From: an uncultured Methanosarcinales archaeon | GTDB taxonomy: Archaea; Nanobdellota; Nanobdellia; Woesearchaeales; GW2011-AR9 | Direction of reading: 5' to 3' | Length of the DNA: 55,510 nt | Assembly: GCA_964434885.1 (NCBI GenBank) | Contig: CAYSWQ010000005.1 | Location: 1-55,510, forward strand | Shown: positions 17,784 to 52,045 of the stretch, in pieces | Numbering within the stretch: the stretch's first letter is position 1 | Layout of the letters: the number at the start of each line of letters is the position of its first letter | Translations under genes and position numbers: made by a program | Notes under the pieces: model-generated | Database searches by the model: none | What the model saw: the letters and a program-made list of their open reading frames with translations, nothing else | What the model was told of the DNA's origin: nothing

Positions 17784-18953
17784 ATGCACAAAAAAAGAGG
17801 GTTTTTTGCTAATCATAAGTTTGGAATGGCGACAGCCACATTGATTGGAACTATTGTTGGGGCAGGTGTTTTAGGGATCCCTTATGTGATTGCAAAGAGT
17901 GGTTTTGTTTATGGTTCTTTATTGATTTTAGTGGTAGGGGCAGCGTTTTTGTTTTTGAATTTATTTGTAGGAGAAATAGTATTAAGGACTAAAGGTAAAC
18001 ACCAGTTAACTGGATATATGGAGAAATACCTGGGAAAGTGGGGGAAAAACCTAATGATGTTTTCCATGGTGTTTGGAATTTATGGAGCATTAACTGCTTA
18101 TTTGATTGGAGAAGGACAAGTTTTGAAACAGATTCTTGGTGGTCCAGCATGGATATATACTTTAATCTTTTTTGTGATTGTTTCCGTGATTATTTACAGG
18201 GGAGTTAAAGCGGCAGGAAAAGTAGAATTAGTGATGATTGCTTTGTTGGTGGTAATCGTTATTTTAATTGGGGCACTTTCATATGACAAGATTAATATTA
18301 GTAATTTGTCAACATTTAATCCTGCGTTTTTCTTTTTACCATATGGGGTAATTTTGTTTGCTTTTATTGGAACCGCATCGGTTCCGGAAATGAGTGAGCA
18401 ATTAGAAAATGAGAAAAAGAAGTTAAAAAAAGCATTGGTGTGGGGAAGTACAATCCCAGTTTTTTTGTATATTTTGTTTTCTTTTATCATTATCAGTATT
18501 GTGGGTTTGGGAAATTTTGAATTGTTACAACCTAATGAAAGAATTGCAACAGTAGCATTGAGTGTTTACGCTAATCCAACTTTGGGATTGTTTGCAAATA
18601 TTTTTGCAATTTTTACAATGTTTACTACTTTTTTGACGTTAGGAGTAGCATTAAAAGAAATGTATGAGTATGATTATCATTTGAATAAATTTCTGGCGTT
18701 TGCGTTAACGATGTTTTTGCCTTTGGGTTTAGCATTATCTGGGTTTACTACTTTTATTGCGACTTTGGGAATTACTGGAGCAGTAGCAGGAGGAGTAGAT
18801 GGAATCTTGGTAGTGTTGGCATATTGGAAAGCGAAAAAGTTTGGAAATCGTAAACCAGAATATTCTATGCGCGTTCCTAAAATTGTTGGATATGTTTTGA
18901 TTTTGATGTTTGGGGTAGGGATTGCATATCAATTGTGGCAGAAGTTTATTTAA
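17784..18953 (+). CDS. Amino acid permease (Aa_trans/aromatic amino acid permease-like)
   Basis: 389 aa with about 11 TM segments. N-terminal ATATLIGTIVGAGVLGIPYVIAKSG pattern. Confidence 0.65.
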   Translation: MHKKRGFFANHKFGMATATLIGTIVGAGVLGIPYVIAKSGFVYGSLLILVVGAAFLFLNLFVGEIVLRTKGKHQLTGYMEKYLGKWGKNLMMFSMVFGIYGALTAYLIGEGQVLKQILGGPAWIYTLIFFVIVSVIIYRGVKAAGKVELVMIALLVVIVILIGALSYDKINISNLSTFNPAFFFLPYGVILFAFIGTASVPEMSEQLENEKKKLKKALVWGSTIPVFLYILFSFIIISIVGLGNFELLQPNERIATVALSVYANPTLGLFANIFAIFTMFTTFLTLGVALKEMYEYDYHLNKFLAFALTMFLPLGLALSGFTTFIATLGITGAVAGGVDGILVVLAYWKAKKFGNRKPEYSMRVPKIVGYVLILMFGVGIAYQLWQKFI

Positions 18954-18982
18954 TCCGTTACTACTGGATGTTAGCAATTATT

Positions 18983-19000
18983 GCGAAACCTTTATATATA
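18983..19000 (+). promoter_or_regulatory. BRE/TATA promoter (GCGAAACCTTTATATATA)
   Basis: Strong TATA about 60 nt upstream of ATG 19060. It is the only such element ahead of the three tightly spaced genes 19060-26661. Confidence 0.5.
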
Positions 19001-19059
19001 TGTGGTTACTTTTGGGTAGTGTTATATATTAGTAGGTGTTAGATGGTGGAAAATTTAAA

Positions 19060-21573
19060 ATGTCTACTGATAATGATGGAAATGGTTCTGATGGTTCTGA
19101 TATGGATACTTATGTGAATGAACTTTGGGACCAAGCTGCAGAAGCTGATGAATTACCTGGAGAAAAGACCATGGTAATGTCAATGCAACATATTGCAGAA
19201 GATGAAAGTTCTGAAGCAGTTGGAGCTATTTCTACCGATGATAAACCAGAACCAGAATTATTTAAAGAGAGTTCTGTTCAAGTTGATCAAGAAGCATTAA
19301 AAGAACCAGAAGTTGTTTCTATGACTCCAGAAGAACTTGAAAAGCCAGGTTTTTGGGCTGGATTATATGCTCGATTAAATCAACCAGTGTTTAATGGTAA
19401 AGAAGAATCAGATCCAGAAATTCCAATTGAGGTAGAAGAACCAGTGGAAAAACCAATAATTCCTGCGTCAAAACCAGAACCTGTTTTGCTTGAAGAGAAA
19501 GTAGAAGAGACAGATGCTTTAGCAACTACTTTAGAATTTGAAAGAAAAGAGCCTGGTTTTTTGGGTCGATTGTATCAGGCAGCCAAGATTTTTTTTAGTG
19601 GAGAAGAAGAACTTCAAGTTGAACCAAAAGAATTACTGGCGGAAAATCCCGCTTATGAAGAAATGGAATTGATCGATAGATTATCTTATGATTTAACAAA
19701 TGAATTTTTTCCTTTTCCTGGAAGTATGGAAAGACCAGCTGTTTTTGATGATTTGGATGAAGCAAAAATGGCACTATTGGATTTTGTTAGTGCAGAAGGA
19801 TATAGGAAATTGGAAGATATTTTACCAAAATCAGATAGGGAAGATCAGAAATTAATGTTTTTGAATTGTGCTTATAATTTATTGGAAAATGATTATGTTC
19901 GTTTAGTAAAAACGAAAGCAGACTCAGAAAAAGCAAGACTTATTTTGGAAAGCAAAATTGTTGCATTAAGGGGAGACTTGAGTCAAGCGAAAGAAGACAT
20001 AGATAGTTTACGAGAAGTTGGCGAAGATTATAATAGAGATAATGAAAATTTTAAACAATATAATGATGAATTAGAAGGAAAATTGGATGAAGCAGAAGCT
20101 GAAGCAAGCCAATTAAAAATTAATTTAGAGAGTGTAAATAAACAACTTGGTGAAACTCAAGGGTTGTTATATCGGATTACAGGAGAAAGAGATTCTTTGC
20201 AAAAGAAGTTGAGAAGATATATTGATATCATGGGAGACCATACTGCTGAAGAGTTTAGAGATAGGACTTTGGAAGCAGAAGGAGAACACCAAGTGGAAAA
20301 ATTACAAAGACAAAATTTAGAAGGAGAATTCGAAGATTATAAATTAGCTGCAGAGCAGAGAGAAGCAGATTTGCAGGCTCGGTTAGATGGTGTTGAAGGA
20401 TTACAATTAGGAATAGAAAGAAGCAAAAAAGAAACTGAAGAACAATTGGTTGCAGTACAGGCTGAATCTAGTTCGGCACAAGAAAGAATTAGTAAATTAC
20501 AAGCTTCTTTAACTCGAGTTAATGATACTTTAGCAGAATATAGGGTGAATTTGGGAGGAGATGAACCAGTTGAAATTAAAGCTTATATTGAAAGTTTGGA
20601 AAATGCTAAAGAGGAAGCTGAAGAAAAATTAACTACTGCAACTGAATCATTGAAATTACTAAAAGATAGATTGGGAAGATATCATACTTTAACTGCAGAA
20701 CAAATTGACACAGAATTTGATGGTATTAAAGAGACTAATGAAAGATTGGAAGAAAGTGTTTTTGATTCTAAAGAAGAATTGGCTGAGATTGTTGAAGAAT
20801 TGAAAGGAGTTAAACAAACTTTAGATGAGAGAACTGCCGAATTAGAAAGAGTTCAAAAAGAATTTAAAACTTATAAATTAGTAGATCCAGAAGCACAAGA
20901 GCATGCAGATAATTTATTTGCATTGGAAGAACAGAATGAATTATTGTCTGCTCAGAATGCAGAATTAGTGGTTGATTCTCATCCAAGAAGAGGAAATAAT
21001 GTTTTAATGGTTGCAGCAGGATTTTTGACTGCTACTTGTTTGGGGGCAGCTGTTTATTTGGGAATTCAGAATGCAGATTTATCTAGTGAGTTAGTTAATG
21101 CTAGAAATCAAAATACAAGTTTAACTCAAACTTATCAGAAAGAGAAAACTCAAATGGTTAGTGGCTATGCACAGAAGAGTAAAGCAGCAGAACAGAAACA
21201 TTCTCAATTTGCTGCTCGAGCCAACAAACTTAATGCTTCTTTGCAAAAGAAATTAGAAGAATCAAAATCAGAATATCAGGATTTAGCTGTGGAATCAGTG
21301 GCTATGGAGAATTATGCATCAATCTTAAAAGCAGATAATTTAGGTGAATTCCAAAAAGTATTGAGAGATTATACTCGAAGTGAAGGGGGAGTAAAAATGA
21401 CTTGTTCTACTCGAGCAGAATGTGCAGAAGATTTGTATGGTCAAATGGTGGATGGATACACACCTGCAGAAGGAGATCTGAAAACAAAAGAAAAATTTGT
21501 GAAGCTGTTTGAAGAAACTTATGCTAAAACACTTCCTGAAAAATTTGGGAAGAAAATCTCTATTGGGATGTAA
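19060..21573 (+). CDS. Giant acidic coiled-coil protein with a single TM segment (unknown function)
   Basis: The track ORF starts at GTG 19036, and in-frame ATG 19060 follows GGTGG. It has an acidic Pro/Glu-rich N-terminus, two PGF(W/L)xxLY motifs, about 350 aa of heptad-like sequence, a TM (NNVLMVAAGFLTATCLGAAVYLGIQ, nt about 20998-21066) and a roughly 165-aa tail. Confidence 0.7.
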   Translation: MSTDNDGNGSDGSDMDTYVNELWDQAAEADELPGEKTMVMSMQHIAEDESSEAVGAISTDDKPEPELFKESSVQVDQEALKEPEVVSMTPEELEKPGFWAGLYARLNQPVFNGKEESDPEIPIEVEEPVEKPIIPASKPEPVLLEEKVEETDALATTLEFERKEPGFLGRLYQAAKIFFSGEEELQVEPKELLAENPAYEEMELIDRLSYDLTNEFFPFPGSMERPAVFDDLDEAKMALLDFVSAEGYRKLEDILPKSDREDQKLMFLNCAYNLLENDYVRLVKTKADSEKARLILESKIVALRGDLSQAKEDIDSLREVGEDYNRDNENFKQYNDELEGKLDEAEAEASQLKINLESVNKQLGETQGLLYRITGERDSLQKKLRRYIDIMGDHTAEEFRDRTLEAEGEHQVEKLQRQNLEGEFEDYKLAAEQREADLQARLDGVEGLQLGIERSKKETEEQLVAVQAESSSAQERISKLQASLTRVNDTLAEYRVNLGGDEPVEIKAYIESLENAKEEAEEKLTTATESLKLLKDRLGRYHTLTAEQIDTEFDGIKETNERLEESVFDSKEELAEIVEELKGVKQTLDERTAELERVQKEFKTYKLVDPEAQEHADNLFALEEQNELLSAQNAELVVDSHPRRGNNVLMVAAGFLTATCLGAAVYLGIQNADLSSELVNARNQNTSLTQTYQKEKTQMVSGYAQKSKAAEQKHSQFAARANKLNASLQKKLEESKSEYQDLAVESVAMENYASILKADNLGEFQKVLRDYTRSEGGVKMTCSTRAECAEDLYGQMVDGYTPAEGDLKTKEKFVKLFEETYAKTLPEKFGKKISIGM

Positions 21574-21607
21574 TAATAAATAAAAAATAAAGCGAGGAAA
21601 AAACAAA

Positions 21608-23668
21608 ATGAAAAAATTAGAAAACATGTTGAGAAGTGCAGTTTTTGCTGGAAGTATGGCATTAGCTGGATTAGGATTATATTCAACTGCAGTAGCAGGA
21701 GAACCTGGACCAAAATCAGATGCAACTGTTGTAGATGCAAGAGGACCAGATGCTGGTGCTCCTAAATTAAAATATAAATTAGATGCTGGTGTTCCAGATA
21801 CTGCTTCACCTGATAGTGCAAAACCAGACATGTATGGTGGTAAAAAAGACAAGGGTGCTCCAATTGTTAAAAAAGATATGTCTTGGAATTGGAATTTTTC
21901 TGATAGTGGAAGTAATGCAGAAGCAACTCCAGATGCTAGTGTTAGGAAAGATATGGGAACTAAGAAAGATTTAGGTTCTCAGAAAGATATGGGAACTAAA
22001 GATATGGGCCCTAAAAAAGATGTAGGTTCTGACAAAGGTAAAGGAAAAACAGCTCCTAAAACACCACCTAAAAAAGTCCCTAAAAAAACTCCTAAAGTAG
22101 AATATAAAGGGAAATTGGAAATTAAATGTGAGAAAGGAGAATACAAAGTTCCTACTAACAGAGGAGATTTACCAGGGAAGTGTGTTATTGATAATAAACC
22201 AAAATACAAACCTTCTAAGTTAGGAACTAAAACCATCTGTGGAACTGATGTTGTTAAGAAAGTTAAATTCAAAACCGGAAAAAAAGCAACTTTTAAGGAA
22301 TTGAATTTGAAAGGTTACACTTGTATGCACAAGCATGTAGTTAAGTCTTTTGGATTTGACTTTTTGAATGGAAACCAATACACTAACAAATTAGAAGAAA
22401 TGTGTGGACCGCAATATCAATGTGCTAAGAATGGTTTAGCTCAGAAAGCAAAAGGATTGAGTAAAGCTAAGCAGTTAGAAAATATGTTAGAACCATGTAA
22501 AGATGAGTACAAGGTTTTGAAAACAAAAACTGAAGCAGCTCAAAAGAGTTACACTGGTTTACAAGCAGCAATTAGGAATTTAGATGGTGCTGTAGCTAAA
22601 CAAAAAGCACAAGTGAAAGCAAATTATCCTAAAGCTTTAGAAGCAGTGAAGAAAGGAGTACCTCAAGTTGGTGATTCGGAAGCTGTTAATAAAGCTAAAG
22701 CGTTTTTTGATGCGTCCAAAAAAGATTACCAAGCGAAAGAGAAAGATTTGAAAGCTTATTTGGGAGAATTAGCAAAGACTGGTTGTGTGACTGAAGATCT
22801 AGGACATTTGAATAAGAAGATTCAAAATCAGTTTACTCAAGTCTACAATGACTTAAATGATTTGGGAGGCGAAGTGGATGCAAACACAGAAGGTCGTTTA
22901 GCTAATAAAAAGAAACTTGGAGAATTAGGACCAAAAGTTAGAAAGAATATAACTAACATTGGAAACAATGCAGATAACATTGGTGTTAACTCAGATGATA
23001 TTGAAGGTCTTAAAAAGAAAGATTTACAACATGATGCAGCAATAAAGAAAGGTACAGCTGCAAGAAAAGCCTTAGAAGAAAAAGTAAGCAAAGGACATGG
23101 CGTTGAAGTTGGAATTGGACCAGTTTATATGAAAGATGCAGCTAATGCAGAAACTGGTGACAATGGTTCTCGTTATGGAGTTATGGCTCAAGTGGTTAAG
23201 AAATTTGGACACAAAGCTAAAACTTATCTTGGCGGTTTCTTAATGGTTACTGGTGGTTCTGGAAGTAAAACCACAGATGCAAATAAACCTTCTTACCAAG
23301 GTACTGTAACTAATGAATCTGGTAACACTAGTTTCACTGCAGGAGTTGTAGCTGGAAAAGACGATCTTTTACATAATGGTAAAAATGTTGATTTCGGTTT
23401 AGAAGGAGCATTAGGTGGAGGAGTTGATCTTGAAACAAAAAACACCAAAGTTAAAGGACAACATTATGTAAATGGTGTTAAACAAGGAAAAGCTTTGGAG
23501 TATGATAAAGATTCAACTACAGAAAGACCTGGTAATTTTGTTGGTATGATTTGCCCAACAGTTACTTTCAATAATAAATTGAAACTAAGTACCTGTGCTA
23601 TTGGTAAATTAAATACTAAAGGAAAAGTTTCACCAGGAGGATCATTACTATTAAAATATGCTTTTTAG
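21608..23668 (+). CDS. Secreted Lys-rich protein with a central coiled coil and a C-terminal OMP-like beta-barrel domain (unknown function)
   Basis: GAGGA SD and a signal peptide. Also KDMGTK-type low-complexity repeats and a PKKxPKK tract. The last ~190 aa alternate hydrophobic and polar residues and end in LLLKYAF*. Confidence 0.7.
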   Translation: MKKLENMLRSAVFAGSMALAGLGLYSTAVAGEPGPKSDATVVDARGPDAGAPKLKYKLDAGVPDTASPDSAKPDMYGGKKDKGAPIVKKDMSWNWNFSDSGSNAEATPDASVRKDMGTKKDLGSQKDMGTKDMGPKKDVGSDKGKGKTAPKTPPKKVPKKTPKVEYKGKLEIKCEKGEYKVPTNRGDLPGKCVIDNKPKYKPSKLGTKTICGTDVVKKVKFKTGKKATFKELNLKGYTCMHKHVVKSFGFDFLNGNQYTNKLEEMCGPQYQCAKNGLAQKAKGLSKAKQLENMLEPCKDEYKVLKTKTEAAQKSYTGLQAAIRNLDGAVAKQKAQVKANYPKALEAVKKGVPQVGDSEAVNKAKAFFDASKKDYQAKEKDLKAYLGELAKTGCVTEDLGHLNKKIQNQFTQVYNDLNDLGGEVDANTEGRLANKKKLGELGPKVRKNITNIGNNADNIGVNSDDIEGLKKKDLQHDAAIKKGTAARKALEEKVSKGHGVEVGIGPVYMKDAANAETGDNGSRYGVMAQVVKKFGHKAKTYLGGFLMVTGGSGSKTTDANKPSYQGTVTNESGNTSFTAGVVAGKDDLLHNGKNVDFGLEGALGGGVDLETKNTKVKGQHYVNGVKQGKALEYDKDSTTERPGNFVGMICPTVTFNNKLKLSTCAIGKLNTKGKVSPGGSLLLKYAF

Positions 23669-23694
23669 AAAAGCATACGAGGTAAACTAAAAAA

Positions 23695-26661
23695 ATGAAA
23701 ATCTTAAAAATATTCACGGTGATTTTTTTAGTTTTAGCTTTGACTACCAGTGGATTGGCTCACCTTGATTGGTTAAAGGTAGATAATACCTTGACTCCTC
23801 TTTTGGCTTGGGACAATGGTAAAAAAACTAAAACTATTACTGATGGAGAATCAGCTACCTTTTCAACAGGGCGGTTTATTTCTCTTACTGACTCAACTGT
23901 AAGTTTAAAGGCATATTTGAATGATGCTCTTACTGGAAAAACAATCAATCAGATTTATTCTGAAGCAGTTGATGTAACAAAAGACGCTCAAGAAAGAAAG
24001 ATTACTATTAAACAGAGTAATTATTTGAAGCCAGGTAAATATGTAGTAGTAATTAATCTACAAACAAAAAATGAGCAATCATCTGATGTTAGCTTAACTT
24101 TAGAAGTTAAAGAAAAGAGTAACTCTGTTACTCCAGTAAATCCGATTGATCCAAATGGACCTAAAGTTAATCCTGGACCTTTTAAGAAAGTCATTAAACC
24201 TTATGCTTTTATGTCTTGGTCTGGTCAAGATATTAATCAGAAAAGTAAAACTGTGATTGTGGGAGAATCTGCAAAAGCAGTATATGTTGCTTCTAGTAAT
24301 GAAGGATATGTGATTGCCAAATTGGAATTAGTACAAAATGGTAAAGTTATCAAAAAATTGGTTGAGAAATCAGCAACTGATAATTACTTAGCTTATGTTA
24401 CTGGTTCTGAAACACTAAATTTAGGTGTTGGTAAATATGAATTGCGATTAGTAGCAGTAGATAAAGACAAAGATTATTCTGTGTATTCTTTATATTTGGA
24501 TGTTAATCAAAAGACAGCAACCTATAAACCAAAGATTCCTCAGAAGCAACCAGGACCTTTCAAAAAAGTTCCTCAAGGGAAAGCAGCACCTTCAATTACT
24601 TTGTCATCTAACAATGTGGTTGTGAAAGAAAATGAGAAAACTAGCATCACAGTTACTGCAACTGATGCAGATAGTAAAAACTTGAAGTTAAGAGCTTACT
24701 TTAAATACACTATTTTTGGTTGGACACTTCCAATTGAATTTAAGTCGTTATGGGGAGCTACTTTTGTAGATAACGGAGATAATACTGGAACTTACACATT
24801 TGCTCCAGATTATAACTTTGTAATCCATAAGTTAACTAGCAAGGTTACTGATTTATATGTGGCTGCTTCAGATGGAGAAACTACTGATGCAGAAGCTAAA
24901 GTGACTGTAACAGTATTGGATGTTAATCGAAAGCCTACTTTTGTTAATTTCGTTAAAGACAGAACCATTGAAGTTGGTAAAGAATTGAAATTTAAAGTAA
25001 CTGGAACAGATGCAGATAAAGAAGATATTAAATCTTTGAAATTCGCAGCTGGTCCAGCTTCATTAGGTTTTAAATTTACTGAAAAAGGCGAATTTACTTG
25101 GACTCCAACTAAAACTGGAGAATATGCAGTATTCTTCCAGATTACTGATCAAATGGGTTTGAGTAGTGATTTGGCTACATTGAAAATCAATGTTAAGGCA
25201 GCTCCAGTTAAACCAAATACTCCTCCAGTAATGGATCCGATTAAGGATAAAACTGGATATGTGGGAGAGAAAGTTAGCTTTGGAGTTAAAGCCACTGATG
25301 CAGATAATGATAAGTTAACATTTAACAAGTTTTACTTGCCTACTGGATCTAAGTTTACCGATAATGGAGATGGAACAGGAACATTTACTTGGACTCCAAC
25401 CAAAGTTGGAACTTATAAAATGGCTTTCCAAGCAGATGATGGAAAAGCAGAAAGTAAGGCAGAGTTTGTTACTTTGACTATTAAGGAAAAATCAACTACA
25501 AATAACAACCCAGTAATCGAATCAATTGGAGACAAACAAGTTGAAGTTGGTAAACAATTAACTATCAAAGTTAAAGCAACCGATAAAGATGGAGATAAGT
25601 TAACTTGGGAAGTTAATCCAAAAGACTTTACTGGACACAAGTTTGTTGACAATGGAGACGGAACTGGAGTATTCACCTGGACTCCAACTAAAGTAGGAAC
25701 TTATTCTGCTTTATTCGGAGTATCTGATGGAATGGGGGGAGAAGACAAGGAAAATATTGGTATCGAAGTTAATGCTAAACCAGTTACTCCTACAAATAAC
25801 AACCCAGTAATCGAATCAATTGGAGACAAACAAGTTGAAGTTGGTAAACAATTAACTATCAAAGTTAAAGCAACCGATAAAGATGGAGATAAGTTAACTT
25901 GGGAAGTTAATCCAAAAGACTTTACTGGACACAAGTTTGTTGACAATGGAGACGGAACTGGAGTATTCACCTGGACTCCAACTAAAGTAGGAACTTATTC
26001 TGCTTTATTCGGAGTATCTGATGGTTTTGGTGGAGGAGAAGCTAAAGAGACAATTAAGATCAACGTAATTAGATCTAATTCAGCACCAAAGATTGTTTCT
26101 TCACCTTTGACTACTGCTAACTTGGGAAAAGAATACACTTACACTGTTAAAGTAGTTGATGCTGAGAATGATCCAGTTAAATATGAAGTATTGTCTGGAC
26201 CAGCAGGAATGAGTTTTAAGAACAATGTTTTATCTTGGACACCAACAAATTCGGGAAAAGCATGTGCTTTGATTCAAGTAACTGAGACAAACACAGCAAG
26301 TAAATTGACAGATAGTCAAGGTTTCTGTGTTGGAACTCAAGAAAAAACTGCGGAAGTAAAATTCGTTACTGCTAACTTATGGTCTGAATATCTCTTACCT
26401 GGAGAATACTTGAGAATCAATGTAGGGGTAAACAATAACGGGGACAAAGATTTCGAAGATTTGAAAGTTACTGGTGTTGTTTACAGTTTAGGACTAATGA
26501 GAACTACTGGTCATTTTGACTTAGATAGTGGAAAGACTTGGCAGAAACAACTAGTAATGGAAATTCCAGCAGATACTCCTGTTGGAGATTATTATGTAAG
26601 AATCACTGTTAGTGGAGATGAGATTAAACACACAACTCATCGGGTTTTTACCATCTACTAA
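23695..26661 (+). CDS. Large secreted adhesin-like protein with about 6 cadherin-like/He_PIG-type Ig repeats and CARDB-like end domains
   Basis: Signal peptide. Two PGPFKKV linkers. Repeats carry (V/K)TATDAD.., DNGDGTG(T/V)FTWTPTK.G.Y motifs. No C-terminal TM. Confidence 0.8.
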   Translation: MKILKIFTVIFLVLALTTSGLAHLDWLKVDNTLTPLLAWDNGKKTKTITDGESATFSTGRFISLTDSTVSLKAYLNDALTGKTINQIYSEAVDVTKDAQERKITIKQSNYLKPGKYVVVINLQTKNEQSSDVSLTLEVKEKSNSVTPVNPIDPNGPKVNPGPFKKVIKPYAFMSWSGQDINQKSKTVIVGESAKAVYVASSNEGYVIAKLELVQNGKVIKKLVEKSATDNYLAYVTGSETLNLGVGKYELRLVAVDKDKDYSVYSLYLDVNQKTATYKPKIPQKQPGPFKKVPQGKAAPSITLSSNNVVVKENEKTSITVTATDADSKNLKLRAYFKYTIFGWTLPIEFKSLWGATFVDNGDNTGTYTFAPDYNFVIHKLTSKVTDLYVAASDGETTDAEAKVTVTVLDVNRKPTFVNFVKDRTIEVGKELKFKVTGTDADKEDIKSLKFAAGPASLGFKFTEKGEFTWTPTKTGEYAVFFQITDQMGLSSDLATLKINVKAAPVKPNTPPVMDPIKDKTGYVGEKVSFGVKATDADNDKLTFNKFYLPTGSKFTDNGDGTGTFTWTPTKVGTYKMAFQADDGKAESKAEFVTLTIKEKSTTNNNPVIESIGDKQVEVGKQLTIKVKATDKDGDKLTWEVNPKDFTGHKFVDNGDGTGVFTWTPTKVGTYSALFGVSDGMGGEDKENIGIEVNAKPVTPTNNNPVIESIGDKQVEVGKQLTIKVKATDKDGDKLTWEVNPKDFTGHKFVDNGDGTGVFTWTPTKVGTYSALFGVSDGFGGGEAKETIKINVIRSNSAPKIVSSPLTTANLGKEYTYTVKVVDAENDPVKYEVLSGPAGMSFKNNVLSWTPTNSGKACALIQVTETNTASKLTDSQGFCVGTQEKTAEVKFVTANLWSEYLLPGEYLRINVGVNNNGDKDFEDLKVTGVVYSLGLMRTTGHFDLDSGKTWQKQLVMEIPADTPVGDYYVRITVSGDEIKHTTHRVFTIY
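25498..26024 (+). repeat. Perfect 233-bp direct duplication (25498-25730 and 25792-26024; period 294 bp = 98 codons) inside the adhesin gene
   Basis: The two copies read identically base for base by eye and encode TNNNPVIESIGDKQVEVGKQLTIKVKATDKDGDKLTWEVNPKDFTGHKFVDNGDGTGVFTWTPTKVGTYSALFGVSDG twice. Confidence 0.9.
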
Positions 26662-26665
26662 AAAA

Positions 26666-26703
26666 GGAGTAATTAGTGTAATATAACTATTACACAATAC
26701 TCC
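26666..26703 (+). terminator. Strong hairpin just after the adhesin stop (possible terminator or processing site)
   Basis: GGAGTA..GTGTAATA-TAAC-TATTACAC..TACTCC (6 + 8 bp with a small internal loop). Confidence 0.4.
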
Positions 26704-26736
26704 TAATGTGTTCCTACTCAATAATGCTAAAACAAA

Positions 26737-26776
26737 CGAAACATTTATATATGACCTCGAGTATAGGGTCATATAT
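26737..26776 (+). promoter_or_regulatory. BRE/TATA promoter (CGAAACATTTATATA) overlapped by a 10-bp inverted repeat ATATATGACC-N10-GGTCATATAT
   Basis: TATA at 26744-26751. Palindrome arms at 26747-26756 and 26767-26776. About 70 nt upstream of ATG 26819. Confidence 0.5.
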
Positions 26777-26818
26777 TAAAACTAATACTACAAAAACCGA
26801 ATTCGGAGGATAAGAAAA

Positions 26819-28078
26819 ATGAAAAAAGTTTTGATGTTATTGGCTTTGCTTATCGTTAGCTTAGTAACAATCGGTATGGTAAATGCAGCAACTTTACCTG
26901 TAAGTATCGAAGAATTAAAAGTTGATGGTAATAAATTATCAAAGTCAAGTGCAAAAGAAAACCTTTATGTTGAAGAAGGTAAATCCTTGAAAGTACAAAT
27001 CAAGGTTAAAAATACTGGTACTACTACTGTTAAAGATATGGAAGTGGAAGCCGCTTTGAAAGGATCTAAATATAGTGTGGATGCTCAAACATCTTTATTT
27101 GATTTAGATGCTGGGGATTCCCGATGGATTTCTTTAAGTTTAAGTTTGCCTAAAAATCTAGACAAAGATCTATATTTGTTAAGAATTTGGGTAACTGACA
27201 AAAACAGTGATGAAGTTAAAGAAACATACAACTTGAAAGTTAACCCAATCAGAAATGGTGTTGGCGTTAAAGATGTTGTTTTTTCACCTGGAACTACTGT
27301 GAAAGCAGGTCATTCTTTGATTGCAGATGTCTTAGTTGATAATTTTGGAGCTAAAGACGAAAAAGATGTCAAAGTTACCTTAAGTATTCCTGCTTTAGGA
27401 GTTAGTACTGCAGATTATGTTAGTAAAATCGAAAACGATGACAAAAAAGTTAGTGAACCAATGTTCTTAAGATTGCCTTTATGTGCAAAAGCTGGAACTT
27501 ACGACGCTAAAGTTACTGTTGCTTACGATGATGCTGACAAAACTGTTACTAAAACTTACAAATTGAATGTTTTGGCTAACGACCGATGTACTACAAGTGC
27601 AGCTACAGGAGGAAAATTAGTTCTGACTGTTGGTCCTGAAACCCAAAATGTTGTAGCTAATAAACAAGCAGTTTACCCAATTGCTTTGACCAATGCTGGT
27701 ACAGAAACTAAAACTTACGTTTTAGAATTAACTGCTGGTAGCTGGGCTACTTCCAAGTTATCTGATAACTTAGTTGTTTTAGCTCCAGGTAAAACCAAAG
27801 TTGCTTACGCTTACTTGACTCCAAGTAAAGATGTAACTGCTGGTCAAAAAGTAGCTACTTTATCAGTTAAATCTGGTAACAATGTCTTGAAAACTGTTTA
27901 CTTGAAAGCTAACGTTGTTAAAGAGAGTAAATCATTGAGCTTAAGAAATGGCTTAGAAATCGCTTTAGTGGTTTTGGTTGTTATCTTAGTTATCGTTGGT
28001 TTAATCTTGGGCTTTAGTAGACTAAGAAAAGACGACGAAGAAGAAGTTTTAGACGAAGAAGGTAAAACTTATTACTAA
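26819..28078 (+). CDS. Secreted, C-terminally TM-anchored S-layer-like protein (paralogue of 15923..16834)
   Basis: GGAGGA SD, signal peptide, three beta-rich CARDB-like segments, TM LEIALVVLVVILVIVGLILGF, acidic tail. Confidence 0.75.
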   Translation: MKKVLMLLALLIVSLVTIGMVNAATLPVSIEELKVDGNKLSKSSAKENLYVEEGKSLKVQIKVKNTGTTTVKDMEVEAALKGSKYSVDAQTSLFDLDAGDSRWISLSLSLPKNLDKDLYLLRIWVTDKNSDEVKETYNLKVNPIRNGVGVKDVVFSPGTTVKAGHSLIADVLVDNFGAKDEKDVKVTLSIPALGVSTADYVSKIENDDKKVSEPMFLRLPLCAKAGTYDAKVTVAYDDADKTVTKTYKLNVLANDRCTTSAATGGKLVLTVGPETQNVVANKQAVYPIALTNAGTETKTYVLELTAGSWATSKLSDNLVVLAPGKTKVAYAYLTPSKDVTAGQKVATLSVKSGNNVLKTVYLKANVVKESKSLSLRNGLEIALVVLVVILVIVGLILGFSRLRKDDEEEVLDEEGKTYY

Positions 28079-28108
28079 GTTTTTCTTTTTTTATTTCTTT
28101 TTTTCTTA
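28079..28108 (+). terminator. Oligo-T tract (archaeal-type terminator candidate)
   Basis: TTTTTCTTTTTTTATTTCTTTTTTTC immediately after the stop codon. Confidence 0.4.
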
Positions 28109-28142
28109 ATATTTTTGTTAGTGGTTTAGTGTTGGAACTAAA

Positions 28143-29234
28143 ATGAATGTAGTTATTGTTGGAGCCGGACCAGTAGGAAGTTATGCTGCTTATTTGTTGG
28201 TTCAAAAAGGCTTTTCAGTTGATTTATATGATTGTAAAAAGAAATCACAAATTGGTAAGCCAGTTCAATGTACAGGAATATTTCCAGAAGAGATTTTGAA
28301 TTTTTTGAAATTAAATGATAAATGTTTAATTAATGTTATTAGTAAAATTGAATTATGTTCTAAGAATAGAAAAGCAGTTTTTAATAAAAAAGAATATGTG
28401 GTGGATCGGACTAAATTTGATAAATCATTGTTAGATTTAGCCATTTCTAGTGGTGTTAATTTTCATTCTGGACATAAATTAGTTGGGTTGAAAAAGAATC
28501 AAGAAGGAAAAGTTAATTTGATTTTTAAGAAAGAGAAGGCAATTAAAATAGTATCTCCTGATTTAATTATTGGGGCAGATGGTCCAAATTCTTTGTTGTT
28601 TCGACGGTTGAATAAAGGAAAAACTCGGAAGAATTATTATGGGGTTCAAGCTAGAGTTAAAGGTGATTTTGATGCTCATGCTTATCAAACTTATTTTGGT
28701 AGTGAGTTTCCTAATTTTTTTGGATGGGTGGTCCCGGAATCTAGTACGGTTGGCAGAGTAGGTTTGGCCACATTAAAAGAACCAGCTGTTTATTTCGATC
28801 AGTTTATGAAGAAGTTGGGGATTGATAAAAAACAAATTGTAGTTAAAGAAGGGGGTGTAATTCCTATTTTTGATTCTTCAATTAGATTTAATTATAAGAA
28901 TATTTATTTGTTGGGGGATGCTGCTGGTTGGGTAAAAGCAACTACTGGAGGAGGAATTGTGCCTGCTTTTTATGAAGTTCATAATTTAGTTAATTGTTTG
29001 GTTAGAAGGAAAGATTATAAGTCAAATTCAAGTAATTTGAAATTACATTTATTGATTAGAAAAGTTTTGAATAAGTTTAATGATGGGGAATATGATAAGT
29101 TAATTGGGGTTTTGGCAAAACCGAGAAATAAAAGATTGGTTGAGAATTATTCTAGGGAGAAACCACTTAAATTAATGTGGAAATTGTTTTTGAATGAACC
29201 TAAATTAGCTTGGTTTGCTCGTAAATTGGTTTGA
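28143..29234 (+). CDS. Geranylgeranyl reductase family FAD-dependent oxidoreductase
   Basis: MNVVIVGAGPVGSYAAYLL dinucleotide fold, GADGPNS, LLGDAAG motifs. Confidence 0.85.
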   Translation: MNVVIVGAGPVGSYAAYLLVQKGFSVDLYDCKKKSQIGKPVQCTGIFPEEILNFLKLNDKCLINVISKIELCSKNRKAVFNKKEYVVDRTKFDKSLLDLAISSGVNFHSGHKLVGLKKNQEGKVNLIFKKEKAIKIVSPDLIIGADGPNSLLFRRLNKGKTRKNYYGVQARVKGDFDAHAYQTYFGSEFPNFFGWVVPESSTVGRVGLATLKEPAVYFDQFMKKLGIDKKQIVVKEGGVIPIFDSSIRFNYKNIYLLGDAAGWVKATTGGGIVPAFYEVHNLVNCLVRRKDYKSNSSNLKLHLLIRKVLNKFNDGEYDKLIGVLAKPRNKRLVENYSREKPLKLMWKLFLNEPKLAWFARKLV

Positions 29235-29329: not shown

Positions 29330-30976
29330 ATGATGAATGTTCTTGGTGATGTTATGACTATGCAAGGTTTTGAAAGAAAAGATGTAGATGCTATTCTGGA
29401 TGTGGCAGATGAAGTTAAATTAGCAATTCATGATCCGGAAGGATTTGGTAAAAAGTTTAAAAAAAAATATGGGAGAAGAGTTTCTAAATTGTTAAAAGAC
29501 ACATTGACTATTGACACTTTTTTTGAGAATAGTACAAGAACTAAGTTTTCTTTTGAAATAGCTGTAATGAAAGCAGGAGGAAAGATTACTGGTTTTCCTT
29601 CCGGAAAATATACTTCTTTAGCAAAGGGAGAAAGTTATGCCGATACCGAAGATATGTTTAATCTTTATGGTTCAGATGCAATAGTGATGAGGAGTAAGAT
29701 AGAAGGGATGCCAAGATGGATTAAAGATTTTTTAGTTCAAGGTTACGATCATATTTTAGGTCATCACCAAGAATCTGGAATGCCTTACATATATAATGTT
29801 CCTTTAATTCTCAATGGGGGAGATGGAAAAAATCAACACCCCACCCAGTGTTTGTTGGATCTATTTACATTAAGAGAAATTGCTCGTTCACAAGGAAAAG
29901 AATTAGAAGGAATGAAAGTAGCATTGCTTAATGATATTGCTCATGGAAGAACAATTTCTTCACTTATTTCGGTTGCACATCTTTATGATTTAGAATTACA
30001 TTTTGCTTCACCGAAACCAGATCGGTTTGGGTTACAAAAACATCATCGTGAAGATTTGATGCGAAGAAGAGTTCTTTTTTACGATCATGGAACTGATTTT
30101 TTAGAAGCAATGAATGCAGCTTTTGCAGCTTATCAATCTCGCCCACAAAAAGAAAGAGTTGGAGCGGGAGAAGATTTGATATCGATGATTAACAAAGGCC
30201 AAATAAATTTAAAGATGATGGAAGAACTAGGAGATTCGGCACCTTATTTACTCCATCCTCGGCCAGTCGATTCAGAAGTTTTTCAAGAAATTCATCCAGA
30301 TTTGAACTTTCATCCTAAGAATAAATCACGAGCTCAATCAGCCAATGGAGTTTATGTGAGAATTGCTTTGGAGGCGTTAGGTTTGGGAAAGATCCAAGTT
30401 GATCATGATTTTTCAGGAAGTTCAAGTGATTTTGAAGGAGTAAATATCCAGAAATTGAAGAAAAATTCTGAACGAAAAAAAAGAGATGAGAATTCTCGAT
30501 CTGGTTATATAGAAGGAAGTGGAATTGTTATTGATCATATAGAAGAAGGATTAGGTAGGAGATTGTGTGGGGTTTTGGGTTTAGAAGGTTTAGGAGTACC
30601 AAAAGTAGTTTCTGATTATATGGAAGTAGCAAATGGTAGAAAATCAAGAAAAGATATGATTAAAATTCATTGTAATTACAAACTTTCAGATAGACAACTC
30701 GAAGCGATTGCTTTAATTTCTCCGGATGCAACAATCAGTAAGATTAAAAACGGTCGAATCAAGAAAAAATTTAGGCCTGTGTCTGGGAATTATGTTGAAG
30801 ATTTGGTTGTGTGTGGTAATGATGCTTGTGTTTCTCATGTTGCTAAAGAACCAACAACTCATAAACACCTACTTACTGGAGATTTAGATGAACGAGTAGT
30901 TAGTTGTTATTATTGTGGTAGGGCAGAAGGAGTAAAAGAGATTTATGACCGAAAAGGGTTCAAATATGTTAAATAA
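29330..30976 (+). CDS. pyrB: Aspartate carbamoyltransferase with the catalytic (PyrB) and regulatory (PyrI) chains fused in one polypeptide
   Basis: PyrB part: NSTRTKFSFE, GESYADT..DAIVMR, GGDGKNQHPTQCLLDLFTLRE, HGRT. After a charged linker comes the PyrI part: GIVIDHIEEG, KDMIKI, and the Zn domain CGNDACVSH...CYYCG. Confidence 0.85.
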   Translation: MMNVLGDVMTMQGFERKDVDAILDVADEVKLAIHDPEGFGKKFKKKYGRRVSKLLKDTLTIDTFFENSTRTKFSFEIAVMKAGGKITGFPSGKYTSLAKGESYADTEDMFNLYGSDAIVMRSKIEGMPRWIKDFLVQGYDHILGHHQESGMPYIYNVPLILNGGDGKNQHPTQCLLDLFTLREIARSQGKELEGMKVALLNDIAHGRTISSLISVAHLYDLELHFASPKPDRFGLQKHHREDLMRRRVLFYDHGTDFLEAMNAAFAAYQSRPQKERVGAGEDLISMINKGQINLKMMEELGDSAPYLLHPRPVDSEVFQEIHPDLNFHPKNKSRAQSANGVYVRIALEALGLGKIQVDHDFSGSSSDFEGVNIQKLKKNSERKKRDENSRSGYIEGSGIVIDHIEEGLGRRLCGVLGLEGLGVPKVVSDYMEVANGRKSRKDMIKIHCNYKLSDRQLEAIALISPDATISKIKNGRIKKKFRPVSGNYVEDLVVCGNDACVSHVAKEPTTHKHLLTGDLDERVVSCYYCGRAEGVKEIYDRKGFKYVK

Positions 30977-35925: not shown

Positions 35926-36702
35926 TTATTTTATCTTTAATAATCTTTTCCAATCTTCTAAATAATATTTGAAGAAAATGATTAGTGCTACTATAACCAT
36001 AACTAGACTAAACCATTGACCTAGACTAAATCCAAGGAAAATACTGTTTTGACGGTAGAAATCAACAATGATTCTTCCTAACCCTTCCCAAAAAACAAAA
36101 TTCCAAAAGATAAAACCTGGTTTAAAATTTTCTTTGAAACTGAGGATTAATAACCAACCGAAAACTAAGAATCTCTTTCCGGCAGCATATAATGTAGAAG
36201 GGTGACGACAATCTTGATAATTGGGAAATTGAACACACCAATCAACGTTAGTTGTTCTCCCTACTAGTTCTCCATTCATGAAATTAGCAATTCTTCCTAA
36301 AGCAAGAGCAAAGATACCTGGAACACTTAAAAGATCTGCCATTTTCCAAAAATTTATTTTTTTCTTTTTACAATACCAATAACCAGCTACCACGATTCCA
36401 ACAAAACCACCATGAAAGCTCATCCCCCCTTGCCAGAATTTTAAAAGATTTAATGGATTTTTAAGATATAATGAAGGTTCCCAGAAGATTTCAAATAATC
36501 TTGAACCAATTAAAACCCCTAACATCAAATAAAAACAAAAATCCCAAATATCATCTTTAGTTAAAGGTATTTTTCCTTTTTTTCTCCAAAAAAACAACCA
36601 CCAAATCATCAGAAAAAATCCCAGAACATAAACTAAACCATAATATCTTATTTCTACTGGTCCTAGAGATAATAGTGTTGGATTGAGGTCATGAATAAAC
36701 AT
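35926..36702 (-). CDS. lgt: Prolipoprotein diacylglyceryl transferase
   Basis: All Lgt signature blocks are present: YYGLVYVLGF, GGMSFHGGFVG, LGRIANFMNGELVGR, RHPSTLY, GRIIVDFYRQ. Confidence 0.9.
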   Translation of the reverse strand: MFIHDLNPTLLSLGPVEIRYYGLVYVLGFFLMIWWLFFWRKKGKIPLTKDDIWDFCFYLMLGVLIGSRLFEIFWEPSLYLKNPLNLLKFWQGGMSFHGGFVGIVVAGYWYCKKKKINFWKMADLLSVPGIFALALGRIANFMNGELVGRTTNVDWCVQFPNYQDCRHPSTLYAAGKRFLVFGWLLILSFKENFKPGFIFWNFVFWEGLGRIIVDFYRQNSIFLGFSLGQWFSLVMVIVALIIFFKYYLEDWKRLLKIK

Positions 36703-51463: not shown

Positions 51464-52045
51464 TTAGAAGGAATAATTTAAACCTAATTCAAAGGCTTGG
51501 AGATTATTATCTAAGTCTTTTGGTAATGTGGATTCAAGAGATTTAATGATTGATTCTTTGCTAATGGGCAAGATGTTTTTTTTGATAGCTATTCCTAGCA
51601 AGATTATATTTCCATAAATTAAATCCCCAAATTTTTCTTTTGATAATTGGGCAGCGTTGATAAATAAAGAATTTTTTGCAATAGTATTAATTTCTTTTTT
51701 TACTTCATCTAAGGAAGGGTAATTTTTAGTTTCTACTGGCCTAATAGATAAAGTATCAATTAAGAAAGAAGTTTTTTCTTTATTGGCTAAGTTTAAATAA
51801 CGAAGGGCTTCAATTAGTTCGAATCCAATGATAAGATCGGCCTGATTATCTCTAATCATTGGGGAATGAATTTCTTCTTTCCCGAATCTCACTTGAATGG
51901 GAATAGCTCCACCACGTTGAGCTAAACCATGAATTTGGGAACCATTAACTTGATAACCTTCAATGTGGGCAGCTCTTGCAATAATTACGGAAGTAAGCAT
52001 TGCCCCTAGTCCCCCAACTCCAGCAAAAAGAATATTGAAAGTCAT
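51464..52045 (-). CDS. iorB: Indolepyruvate:ferredoxin oxidoreductase beta subunit
   Basis: FNILFAGVGGLGAMLTS N-terminus. Overlaps iorA by 4 nt. Confidence 0.85.
   Translation of the reverse strand: MTFNILFAGVGGLGAMLTSVIIARAAHIEGYQVNGSQIHGLAQRGGAIPIQVRFGKEEIHSPMIRDNQADLIIGFELIEALRYLNLANKEKTSFLIDTLSIRPVETKNYPSLDEVKKEINTIAKNSLFINAAQLSKEKFGDLIYGNIILLGIAIKKNILPISKESIIKSLESTLPKDLDNNLQAFELGLNYSF

What the first reader, a model, noticed from the sequence alone, without database searches (positions are those of the whole stretch)
23093..23668. Bacterial outer-membrane-type beta-barrel with a canonical C-terminal beta-signal, encoded in an archaeal context
Seen: the last ~190 aa of the 686-aa secreted protein (from GHGVEVGIGPVYM) consist of about 8 short segments with alternating hydrophobic/polar residues. 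These include GVEVGIGPVYM, RYGVMAQVVKKF, KTYLGGFLMVTGG, TSFTAGVVAGK, VDFGLEGALGGGVDLE, NFVGMICPTVTFN, LKLSTCAIGKLN and GGSLLLKYAF. Gly/Asn/Asp-rich turns separate them, and the protein ends in ...L-L-L-K-Y-A-F-stop. Established: a terminal Phe with aromatic or hydrophobic residues at -3, -5 and -7 is the beta-signal of diderm-bacterial 8-stranded OMPs (OmpA/OmpX/PF13505 type), which the BAM complex recognises. Archaea lack BAM and normally have a single membrane. Inference: this could be a horizontally acquired barrel, a pore-former delivered into a partner cell's membrane, or a sign of an unusual envelope.
Basis: partly seen in the sequence, partly recalled or inferred. Interest (0 to 1): 0.75.

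Follow-up and report, generated by a model that had tools for sequence, protein, structure and literature searches.

The report
OMP-like beta-barrel tail in Woesearchaeota
A secreted surface protein of an uncultured marine DPANN archaeon ends in a 190-residue domain that looks, by sequence pattern, like a small bacterial outer-membrane beta-barrel; relatives carry the same kind of domain at the same gene position, which would be unprecedented for archaea, but the fold could not be confirmed.

Summary
ORF 21608-23668 (+) encodes a 686-aa secreted protein whose last 191 aa form eight amphipathic strands and end in ...LLLKYAF. The contig is archaeal (Woesearchaeota). It is not chimeric: the identical protein with the same flanks occurs on 7 contigs from several metagenomes, and GC/GC3 are normal. 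The domain has no detectable homologue in 1.84 billion representative proteins, Pfam, NCBIfam or PDB, so neither bacterial-family membership nor horizontal transfer is supported. Synteny showed that it belongs to a fast-evolving Woesearchaeal family. In four other genomes the same slot (membrane-anchored protein, this protein, Ig-repeat giant, S-layer-like protein, GG reductase) holds a secreted protein with an eight-strand C-terminal domain. These domains share the short-turn/long-loop alternation, and 6 of 7 end in F/W. A control test on 365 E. coli ORFs picked only true OMPs. By that test the family has OMP-type signatures: Gly-rich inner faces (29%, against 22% in OMPs and 5% in soluble beta proteins) and aromatics at strand ends. 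AlphaFold without an alignment failed (pLDDT 34), so the barrel is inferred, not shown. Which membrane it would sit in is unknown.

The parts
21608..23668 (+). Whole gene: 686-aa secreted protein (signal peptide, low-complexity region, Cys region, helical region, C-terminal beta domain)
   Evidence: The identical protein occurs on 7 contigs from independent assemblies.
21608..21700 (+). N-terminal Sec-type signal peptide (aa 1-31, MKKLENMLRSAVFAGSMALAGLGLYSTAVAG)
   Evidence: Read from the sequence. Counterparts have the same type, ending ADA|E or AEA|E.
21701..22132 (+). K/D/P/G-rich low-complexity spacer (aa 32-175) with short tandem repeats at 21946-22021 (18-nt unit, KDMGTK) and 22046-22096 (12-nt unit). 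Absent from the counterparts.
22127..22498 (+). Cys-containing region (aa 174-297, 7 Cys). The motif at 22226-22360 (TKTICG...FKELNLKGYTCMHKHVVKSFGFD) is the only part with detectable similarity to the counterparts.
   Evidence: Family-A HMM match at aa 203-265, 14.1 bits. Empirical p about 0.001 against 2000 block shuffles.
22445..23092 (+). About 215-aa helical, coiled-coil-like stalk (aa 280-495) running directly into the beta domain. Specific to this protein.
   Evidence: Weak SMC/CENP coiled-coil hits. A low-confidence AlphaFold model has a helix up to the first strand.
23093..23665 (+). The finding: C-terminal 191-aa Gly-rich beta domain, with eight amphipathic strands, turns of 1-8 aa alternating with loops of 7-37 aa, and a terminal Y-A-F
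23099..23131 (+). Strand 1 GVEVGIGPVYM
23171..23206 (+). Strand 2 RYGVMAQVVKKF
23219..23257 (+). Strand 3 KTYLGGFLMVTGG
23327..23359 (+). Strand 4 TSFTAGVVAGK
23384..23422 (+). Strand 5 NVDFGLEGALGGG
23534..23572 (+). Strand 6 NFVGMICPTVTFN (Cys649)
   Evidence: Cys649 lies opposite Cys663 across the 1-aa turn, as in the counterparts.
23576..23614 (+). Strand 7 KLKLSTCAIGKLN (Cys663)
23636..23665 (+). Strand 8 GGSLLLKYAF: beta-signal-like C-terminus (F at 0, Y at -2, L at -4, L at -6)
19036..21573 (+). Upstream partner gene: 845-aa protein without signal peptide, with a coiled-coil N-terminal part, a single TM helix (aa 656-674) and about 170 aa outside. Proteins with the same architecture occupy this slot in all related loci.
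23695..26661 (+). Downstream 988-aa Ig/cadherin-like repeat surface protein (conserved slot)
26819..28078 (+). 419-aa S-layer-like protein (CARDB/NPCBM_assoc) with a C-terminal TM anchor. It is 58-64% identical in related loci and marks the end of the cluster.

Best explanation
The last 191 aa are the anchor domain of a lineage-specific, fast-evolving family of secreted Woesearchaeal envelope proteins. I infer that they fold as an eight-stranded up-and-down barrel of OmpX/OmpA size, built inside-out relative to soluble barrels. The outer face would be apolar with aromatic residues at both strand ends, so it would be buried in lipid. The inner face would be rich in Gly and other small residues.

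In this model the termini and the 1-8-residue turns lie on one side, and the long loops L2 and L3 (23 and 37 aa) lie on the other. The C-terminal aromatic strand acts as a folding or insertion determinant, as in bacterial OMPs.

The N-terminal part (Cys domain plus a 215-aa helical stalk) would then extend from the barrel's cis side back towards the cell. There it could meet the extracytoplasmic tail of the bitopic membrane protein encoded immediately upstream. The pair would form a tether between the cytoplasmic membrane and a second lipid layer, either the cell's own outer layer or the membrane of a host cell.

Shown: the sequence features, their conservation across a syntenic family, the native archaeal origin, and the absence of known-family membership. 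Inferred: the closed barrel, lipid embedding, the partner interaction and the target membrane.
For: 1. Native and real. The identical protein with the same flanks occurs in independent assemblies. GC is 0.35 and GC3 0.18, against window means of 0.313+/-0.031 and 0.209+/-0.042.

2. Conserved slot. In L039, L040, L042 and L057 the order is permease, bitopic TM protein, secreted protein with a C-terminal beta domain, Ig-repeat giant, S-layer-like protein, GG reductase.

3. Shared features in the counterparts (405, 444, 418 and 386 aa, plus paralogues of 458/459 aa). All have signal peptides and eight amphipathic strands with the same asymmetry: T1-T3 of 2-4 aa, L2 and L3 of 27-41 aa. Six of seven end in F/W: GARF, RYNW, RVKW, RINF (twice) and KYAF. 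The beta domains fall into three classes that phmmer/HMM cannot connect, so the retained terminus and topology point to constraint.

4. Weak sequence orthology in the Cys motif (empirical p about 0.001).

5. Controls for Gly on the face opposite the apolar face: 49/220 (22%) in six E. coli OMPs, 53/1008 (5%) in 25 soluble secreted beta proteins (including lipocalin Blc, YceI, pilins and the neighbouring archaeal Ig and S-layer proteins), and 41/140 (29%) in the family. Family vs soluble p=6e-16; family vs OMP p=0.14.

6. Controls for aromatics on the apolar face, ends vs centre: OMPs 0.45/0.28, soluble 0.11/0.21, family 0.31/0.21.

7. Combined criterion (C-terminal pattern, Gly at or above 0.15-0.17, at least 4 strand windows). 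It flags only OMPs among 365 E. coli ORFs, with no false positive; 5/8 OMPs pass at 0.17 and 8/8 would at 0.15. It flags exactly the six family proteins with a terminal F/W among 119 archaeal ORFs.

8. A Cys pair lies directly across the S6-S7 hairpin in the target and in most counterparts, which fits an extracytoplasmic, oxidising location.
Against: - No structure.
- No similarity to any OMP family or solved structure.
- The target's own Gly score rests on only 4 windows (0.19, marginal). The thresholds were chosen after seeing the first control set; the second set was unseen, and there LamB and FadL fell just below 0.17.
- The soluble-barrel controls are few (Blc, YceI).
- One counterpart (L057, 386 aa) has 7 residues after the last strand.
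- In the A/B subfamilies the best-conserved motifs lie in the long loops, not in the strands, unlike typical bacterial OMPs.
- An S-layer-like protein with a TM anchor is encoded in the same cluster, which argues against a conventional outer membrane.
- No Omp85/POTRA gene was seen in the roughly 65 kb of this genome examined or in the related loci.
- No membrane beta-barrel has been established in archaea (own knowledge; nothing found).
Confidence: 0.5

Rival explanations
1. The domain is a soluble, extracellular beta domain: an up-and-down barrel of the lipocalin/avidin kind, or a sandwich or lectin-like head. It would sit at the tip of a stalk. The apolar face would be its core or an oligomer interface, and the terminal aromatic residue would be a packing residue.
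For: The alternating pattern, the eight hairpin-connected strands and the long loops at one end are also what a calycin-type barrel shows (own knowledge). The conserved motifs sit in the long loops, as expected for a binding site. Archaea have no known OMP insertion machinery. An anchored S-layer-like protein in the cluster suggests a normal single-membrane envelope. There is no match to OMP families.
Against: The Gly fraction on the non-apolar faces (29%) is far above soluble controls, including the barrels Blc (8%) and YceI (7%). Aromatics cluster at strand ends, the opposite of the soluble controls. The terminal F/W is retained across sequence classes that are otherwise unrecognisable. There is no match to lipocalin, avidin or any soluble family either.
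Confidence: 0.33
2. It is a bacterial 8-stranded OMP gene (OmpA/OmpX/PF13505 type) recently acquired by horizontal transfer.
For: Only the general resemblance of the strand pattern and the Y-x-F terminus to proteobacterial OMPs (compare OmpX GVGYRF and OmpW AGYRF). One insignificant PF13505 hit (E=0.28) was found on a counterpart.
Against: There is no homologue outside this lineage among 5.8 billion clustered sequences or 1.84 billion representatives. There is none in GTDB genomes and none in Pfam, NCBIfam or PDB. GC and GC3 are native. The gene slot is conserved across diverged Woesearchaeota whose GG reductases are 42-52% identical.
Confidence: 0.03
3. The block 18.9-28.1 kb is an assembly chimera joining bacterial DNA to an archaeal contig.
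For: There is a modest shift in AT skew (about -0.1 to +0.2) and slightly higher GC across 19-28 kb.
Against: Both junctions are crossed by contigs from different projects and assemblers (ENA, JGI, Logan) carrying the identical protein. Related genomes have the same gene order. GC3 is within 1 SD of the window's genes. The skew follows from four Lys/Asp/Thr-rich secreted proteins on one strand.
Confidence: 0.01

Closest known systems
Small 8-stranded bacterial outer-membrane barrels (OmpX/Ail-Lom PF06316, OmpA N-domain PF01389, OMP_b-brl PF13505, OmpW)
   Same: Size (about 170-200 aa); eight amphipathic strands; short turns alternating with longer loops; Gly-rich inner face; aromatic residues at strand ends; C-terminal aromatic with hydrophobic residues at -2 and -4; Sec signal peptide.
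   Different: No sequence or profile similarity. The organism is an archaeon with no known BAM. The barrel is C-terminal to a large N-terminal region. Two loops are very long (up to 41 aa) and carry the conserved motifs in relatives. There is a Cys pair across strands 6 and 7.
OmpM / SlpA-type outer-membrane tethers of Negativicutes, Deinococcus-Thermus and relatives (own knowledge)
   Same: Domain order: N-terminal binding domain, long coiled-coil stalk, C-terminal membrane barrel. The proposed role is to link an outer lipid layer to the layer beneath.
   Different: There is no SLH domain and no peptidoglycan. The barrel is far smaller (8 strands, not porin-sized). The stalk is present only in the window's protein, not in the counterparts.
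Trimeric and classical autotransporters (YadA anchor PF03895, Autotransporter PF03797)
   Same: Signal peptide, extended passenger or stalk, a helix leading straight into a C-terminal barrel that ends in an aromatic residue.
   Different: No HMM match. The strand count per chain (8) fits neither the 4x3 nor the 12-strand design.
Soluble calycin barrels (lipocalin Blc, YceI, avidin)
   Same: Eight up-and-down strands with long loops at one end of the barrel.
   Different: Gly content of the polar faces and aromatic placement differ from Blc and YceI in the control test. No sequence match.
Outer-membrane pore Imp1227 of Ignicoccus hospitalis (own knowledge)
   Same: It would be the only other protein type proposed to sit in an archaeal outer lipid layer.
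   Different: Imp1227 is a small alpha-helical oligomer, not a beta-barrel, and comes from an unrelated lineage.

Membership tests
Bacterial 8-stranded OMP families (PF13505, PF01389, PF06316, PF03922) | Match to the family HMM at or above the curated threshold | tested here: not met
   No Pfam family even at E<=10 for the domain. Nothing relevant for the whole protein. NCBIfam gave none. Counterparts gave only PF13505 at E=0.28.
Bacterial 8-stranded OMP families (PF13505, PF01389, PF06316, PF03922) | Eight amphipathic strands, apolar face with an aromatic girdle, Gly/small inner face, short turns alternating with loops | tested here: met
   Strand map. Gly on the opposite face 0.19-0.40 per protein, pooled 29% vs 22% in OMPs and 5% in soluble proteins. 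Aromatics at ends vs centre 0.31/0.21, like OMPs. Loop and turn lengths were read.
Bacterial 8-stranded OMP families (PF13505, PF01389, PF06316, PF03922) | Closed transmembrane barrel in three dimensions | tested here: inconclusive
   AlphaFold2 single-sequence models had pLDDT 33.6 and 34.1. The PDB profile search was empty.
Bacterial 8-stranded OMP families (PF13505, PF01389, PF06316, PF03922) | C-terminal beta-signal (terminal F/W, hydrophobic at -2 and -4) | tested here: met
   ...LLLKYAF. The pattern is positive in 6 of 7 family proteins. In E. coli it is hit by all 8 OMPs with C-terminal barrels and by 4 of 357 other ORFs.
Bacterial 8-stranded OMP families (PF13505, PF01389, PF06316, PF03922) | Host cell has an outer membrane and an Omp85/BamA insertase | not testable with these tools
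   No Omp85/POTRA family was found among the window's genes or in the 10 kb beyond its left end. The complete genome was not available and no imaging exists.
Autotransporters (PF03797, PF03895) | HMM match to the translocator domain; 12-strand or 3x4-strand barrel | tested here: not met
   No Pfam hit. Eight strands were counted.
OmpM/SlpA-type tethers | N-terminal SLH domain, coiled coil and C-terminal porin-size barrel | tested here: not met
   No SLH hit. The coiled-coil-like region and a C-terminal beta domain are present, but the barrel is small.
Soluble calycin barrels (lipocalin, avidin, YceI) | HMM match; bulky hydrophobic core face and polar, Gly-poor outer face | tested here: not met
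   No Pfam or PDB hit. Blc and YceI have 8% and 7% Gly on the opposite face, against 19-40% here.
Woesearchaeal cluster family defined here | Gene slot between the bitopic TM protein and the Ig-repeat giant, upstream of the S-layer-like protein and GG reductase; signal peptide; Cys motif; about 200-aa eight-strand C-terminal domain | tested here: met
   Synteny. Cys-motif HMM match. The beta domain itself is not alignable to the others by HMM, so membership rests on position, motif and architecture.

The most novel reading that the evidence does not exclude
This would be the first family of OMP-like transmembrane beta-barrels native to Archaea, assembled without BAM. It would imply one of two things: either some marine Woesearchaeota (DPANN) possess a second, outer lipid layer tethered to the cytoplasmic membrane by this gene cluster, or they plant barrel anchors in the membrane of a host cell.
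Probability: 0.42. Interest if true: 0.9.

Novelty: new variant of a known kind. Interest (0 to 1): 0.72.

Why it matters
Membrane beta-barrels are regarded as a hallmark of diderm bacteria and their organelle descendants, and their assembly as dependent on Omp85 machines. A native archaeal family with the same physico-chemical design but no sequence ancestry would be either convergent evolution of the barrel anchor or an extremely old relic. It would raise the question of how such barrels insert without BAM into ether-lipid membranes. It would also give a concrete molecular handle (a conserved four- to five-gene envelope cluster) on the unknown cell envelope and attachment biology of uncultured Woesearchaeota. 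The claim can be tested directly with the seven sequences recovered here.

Tried and rejected
- **Homologue searches.** Searches with the C-terminal domain and with the whole protein found only a fragment of the same protein. Exhaustive phmmer on 1.84 billion representatives found only that fragment plus a 22-aa Gly-rich motif hit (VDFGxxGAxGGG) in a CBM-like repeat protein. I take that hit as chance, inflated by five repeats.
- **Genome and metagenome scans.** A GTDB genome scan with the protein found nothing. A metagenome scan with the S-layer-like alignment returned one short locus.
- **Paralogues.** None in the window.
- **Family and structure databases.** Pfam, NCBIfam and PDB sequence or profile searches gave nothing for the target or the counterparts.
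- **Profile comparison.** hhalign of the family profile against E. coli OMPs and soluble controls gave no signal in either direction.
- **Structure prediction.** AlphaFold2 was run twice on the single sequence and was unusable, so no fold search was run.
- **Homology within the family.** An HMM of the five counterpart beta domains does not score the target above shuffles. L057_386 is likewise unconnected, so I do not claim sequence homology of the barrel itself.
- **Other rejected ideas.** Chimera and horizontal-transfer readings are rejected. The protein has no lipobox (no Cys in its signal peptide). A 381-aa unannotated protein beside another Ig-repeat gene, 17 kb left of the window, is a lipobox protein and not a family member.
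- **Literature and samples.** Literature searches found no description of such a family. Sample accessions could not be traced.
Full report
**1. The observation**

The ORF at 21608-23668 (+) encodes 686 aa. All eight quoted segments are present; their coordinates are listed under parts.

The protein has these regions:
- a Sec-type signal peptide;
- a K/D/P/G-rich spacer with 18-nt and 12-nt tandem repeats;
- a region with seven Cys;
- a helical region of about 215 aa with weak SMC-type coiled-coil hits;
- the 191-aa C-terminal domain, which is 16.8% Gly.

**2. Context and integrity**

The window is archaeal. It encodes aIF5B, Trm1, RNA cyclase, RLI/ABCE1, archaeal GluRS, geranylgeranyl reductase, a PGF-pre-PGF protein and S-layer-like proteins. 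The aIF5B is 77% identical to that of a Candidatus Woesearchaeota MAG, and the next best hits are all Woesearchaeota/Nanoarchaeota.

The exact 686-aa protein lies on 7 contigs from ENA, JGI and Logan assemblies. All have the same neighbours on both sides (left flank). GC (0.35) and GC3 (0.18) are within about 1 SD of the window's genes. The mild AT-skew shift over 19-28 kb follows from four Lys/Asp/Thr-rich genes on one strand. Mis-assembly is excluded for practical purposes.

**3. No known relatives**

- The domain has no Pfam family at E<=10 and no PDB sequence match.
- It has no NCBIfam match.
- Searches of 5.8 billion clustered proteins, with the domain and with the full length, returned only a 383-aa fragment of the same protein.
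- Exhaustive phmmer against 1.84 billion representatives returned that fragment plus one short Gly-rich motif hit that I regard as chance.
- GTDB species genomes hold no relative.

Membership of PF13505/PF01389 and recent acquisition from bacteria are therefore unsupported.

**4. Synteny reveals a family**

I used homologues of the adjacent GG reductase to fetch related Woesearchaeal contigs. Four of them (L039, L040, L042, L057) keep the same order:
1. amino-acid permease (seen in L039 and L057);
2. a protein with no signal peptide, one central TM helix and 130-220 aa outside;
3. a secreted protein of 386-444 aa;
4. an Ig/cadherin-repeat protein of 850-1000 aa;
5. the S-layer-like protein (58-64% identical);
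6. GG reductase.

L040 and L042 carry an additional paralogue (458/459 aa). L037 lacks the block. L047 and L056 have lipobox proteins in the slot instead.

The slot proteins read as follows:
- a signal peptide ending ADA|E or AEA|E (AQE in L057);
- a Cys region (in the 405-, 444- and 418-aa counterparts);
- a C-terminal stretch of about 200 aa with eight amphipathic strands.

Their termini are ...GGGFRLGARF, ...GGGPVLRYNW, ...GGGLLGRVKW and ...VRSAYRINF (twice). In L057 the terminus is ...FWIKLGY followed by a 7-residue tail.

Turn and loop lengths are the same in all:

| Protein | L1 | T1 | L2 | T2 | L3 | T3 | L4 |
|---|---|---|---|---|---|---|---|
| L039 (405 aa) | 6 | 3 | 41 | 3 | 35 | 2 | 6 |
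| L057 (386 aa) | 3 | 3 | 27 | 2 | 36 | 2 | 6 |
| Window protein | 13 | 4 | 23 | 8 | 37 | 1 | 7 |

Most members have a Cys pair facing each other across the S6-S7 hairpin.

**5. How far does homology go?**

- The 405-, 444- and 418-aa proteins are clearly homologous to each other. They are weakly homologous to the 458/459-aa paralogues (E of 1e-5 to 1e-9 with Z=1).
- The target's beta domain does not score above shuffled controls against their profile. The same holds for L057's.
- The target matches the family HMM only in the Cys motif (plCG...fkklnl.dYkC....G.d; 14.1 bits). That score ranks second among 2001 block-shuffled sequences.

The target is therefore a positional counterpart with weak sequence support. 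The barrel-like domain is conserved in design, not in sequence. That pattern is what one expects if selection acts on a physico-chemical pattern.

**6. Membrane barrel or soluble beta domain?**

Alternating hydrophobicity alone cannot decide this, so I calibrated simple measures on real proteins from E. coli K-12.

*Method.* I took windows of nine residues whose alternate positions are apolar, then examined the opposite face and the placement of aromatic residues.

*Gly on the opposite face*:

| Set | Gly / residues | Fraction |
|---|---|---|
| OmpX, OmpA-N, OmpW, PagP, OmpT, OmpF | 49/220 | 22% |
| 25 soluble secreted beta proteins (Blc, YceI, pilins, chaperones, LptE, archaeal Ig and S-layer neighbours) | 53/1008 | 5% |
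| The family | 41/140 | 29% |

Family vs soluble p=6e-16; family vs OMP p=0.14. Per-protein values are 0.19-0.40. L057_386, scored separately, has 0.29.

*Aromatic residues on the apolar face, ends vs centre*:

| Set | Ends | Centre |
|---|---|---|
| OMPs | 0.45 | 0.28 |
| Soluble controls | 0.11 | 0.21 |
| The family | 0.31 | 0.21 |

Family ends vs soluble ends: p=8e-6.

*C-terminal pattern* (F/W at the end, hydrophobic at -2, hydrophobic or Gly at -4):
- Among 213 E. coli ORFs it picked five OMPs and FrdC.
- Among 152 unseen ORFs it picked OmpC, LamB, FadL and three spurious ORFs.
- With the Gly criterion added there were no false positives in 357 non-OMP ORFs. OmpT, LamB and FadL fall just below the 0.17 cut but above 0.15.
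- Among 119 archaeal ORFs from the window and related loci, the combined criterion selects exactly the six family proteins with a terminal F/W.

*Caveats.*
- The measure is home-made.
- The cut was set after the first control set.
- The target itself contributes only four windows (0.19).
- Only two soluble barrels were available as controls.

**7. What could not be done**

AlphaFold2 on the single sequence gave pLDDT 33.6 and 34.1. Strands appeared where I place S1-S3 and S6-S8, but there was no usable fold. The tool does not accept the locus-derived relatives, so the decisive prediction with an alignment remains to be run. hhalign and PDB profile searches were empty. The whole genome could not be searched for Omp85-like genes; none is among the genes of the window or in the 10 kb beyond its left end.

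**8. Interpretation**

The most economical reading is this. Woesearchaeota possess a native, rapidly diverging family of secreted envelope proteins, and its C-terminal domain has the design of a small lipid-embedded beta-barrel.

In an even-stranded barrel both termini lie on the side of the short turns. The N-terminal Cys domain (and, in the window's protein, a 215-aa stalk) would therefore project from that side. The upstream gene always encodes a membrane-anchored protein with an extracytoplasmic tail, which is a plausible partner. The layout recalls OmpM/SlpA-type tethers, but without SLH domains (own knowledge).

Which lipid layer receives the barrel is open:
- An outer membrane of the cell itself. 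Double membranes have been reported for ARMAN, Ignicoccus, SM1 and Methanomassiliicoccus (PMC4243693). No such data exist for Woesearchaeota, and the anchored S-layer-like protein argues against it.
- The membrane of a host cell, in keeping with the ectosymbiotic habit of cultivated DPANN (PMC11329633).

The main rival is a soluble calycin-like or lectin-like head domain. I give it about one third. It explains the conserved loop motifs and needs no new cell biology. It does not explain the Gly-rich faces, the aromatic placement or the retained terminal F/W.

**9. Verdict**

No description of such a family was found in the literature searched. The finding is a strong lead that one structure prediction with the alignment assembled here could largely settle.

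Noticed in passing
window 35926-36702 (-); also L039:18303-19088, L057:3384-4190, L047:5191-6108, L056:5126-6220, L059:17814-18959: There is a strong homologue of bacterial prolipoprotein diacylglyceryl transferase Lgt (PF01790, E=1.9e-63). Several secreted proteins in this and related Woesearchaeal loci have lipobox-like N-termini (LFASC, LAGC, TTGC, AVSC), some in the very slot of the envelope cluster. This suggests a bacterial-type lipoprotein pathway in these archaea.
   Followed up: partly
window 25496-25745 and 25790-26039 (inside gene 23695-26661): A 294-nt tandem duplication, 98% identical, encodes two nearly identical Ig-like repeats. Several independent contigs (L003-L006) end inside this gene, probably because the repeat breaks assemblies.
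   Followed up: partly
window 29330-30976 (+): A single 548-aa ORF fuses the aspartate carbamoyltransferase catalytic (PyrB) and regulatory (PyrI) chains.
   Followed up: no
L037:7300-11107 compared with window 17784-29234: A related Woesearchaeon has permease, S-layer-like protein and GG reductase with nothing in between. The three-gene block (TM protein, beta-domain protein, Ig giant) is therefore variably present. In L047 and L056 it is replaced by a huge coiled-coil TM protein plus a lipobox protein.
   Followed up: partly
L039, L040, L042 beta-domain proteins (alignment A4): The best-conserved motifs of the A/B subfamilies lie in the two long loops (E-x-LLPD-x-TYK-x-TEE and DPKTI), not in the strands. 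The window's protein lacks both motifs.
   Followed up: no
window 43587-44498 (-): This 302-aa protein combines an ArsR-type HTH (PF12840) with an 'S-layer like family, outer domain' (PF05124), an odd pairing.
   Followed up: no
window 51464-52045 (-): A 193-aa ORF next to the indolepyruvate oxidoreductase alpha gene ends in ...ELGLNYSF. It is a false positive of the C-terminal pattern and shows that the pattern alone is not diagnostic in this AT-rich genome.
   Followed up: yes
L040:746-1801 (-) and L042:957-2039 (-): A further conserved coiled-coil protein with a single TM helix is encoded divergently just upstream of the cluster in two related loci. The window has no counterpart.
   Followed up: no
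window 19036-21573 (+): The 845-aa upstream partner starts at GTG in the mechanical ORF call. It has a very acidic N-terminus and SMC-like coiled-coil hits. A Logan contig (L005) calls it 8 residues shorter (837 aa), so the true start is uncertain.
   Followed up: no
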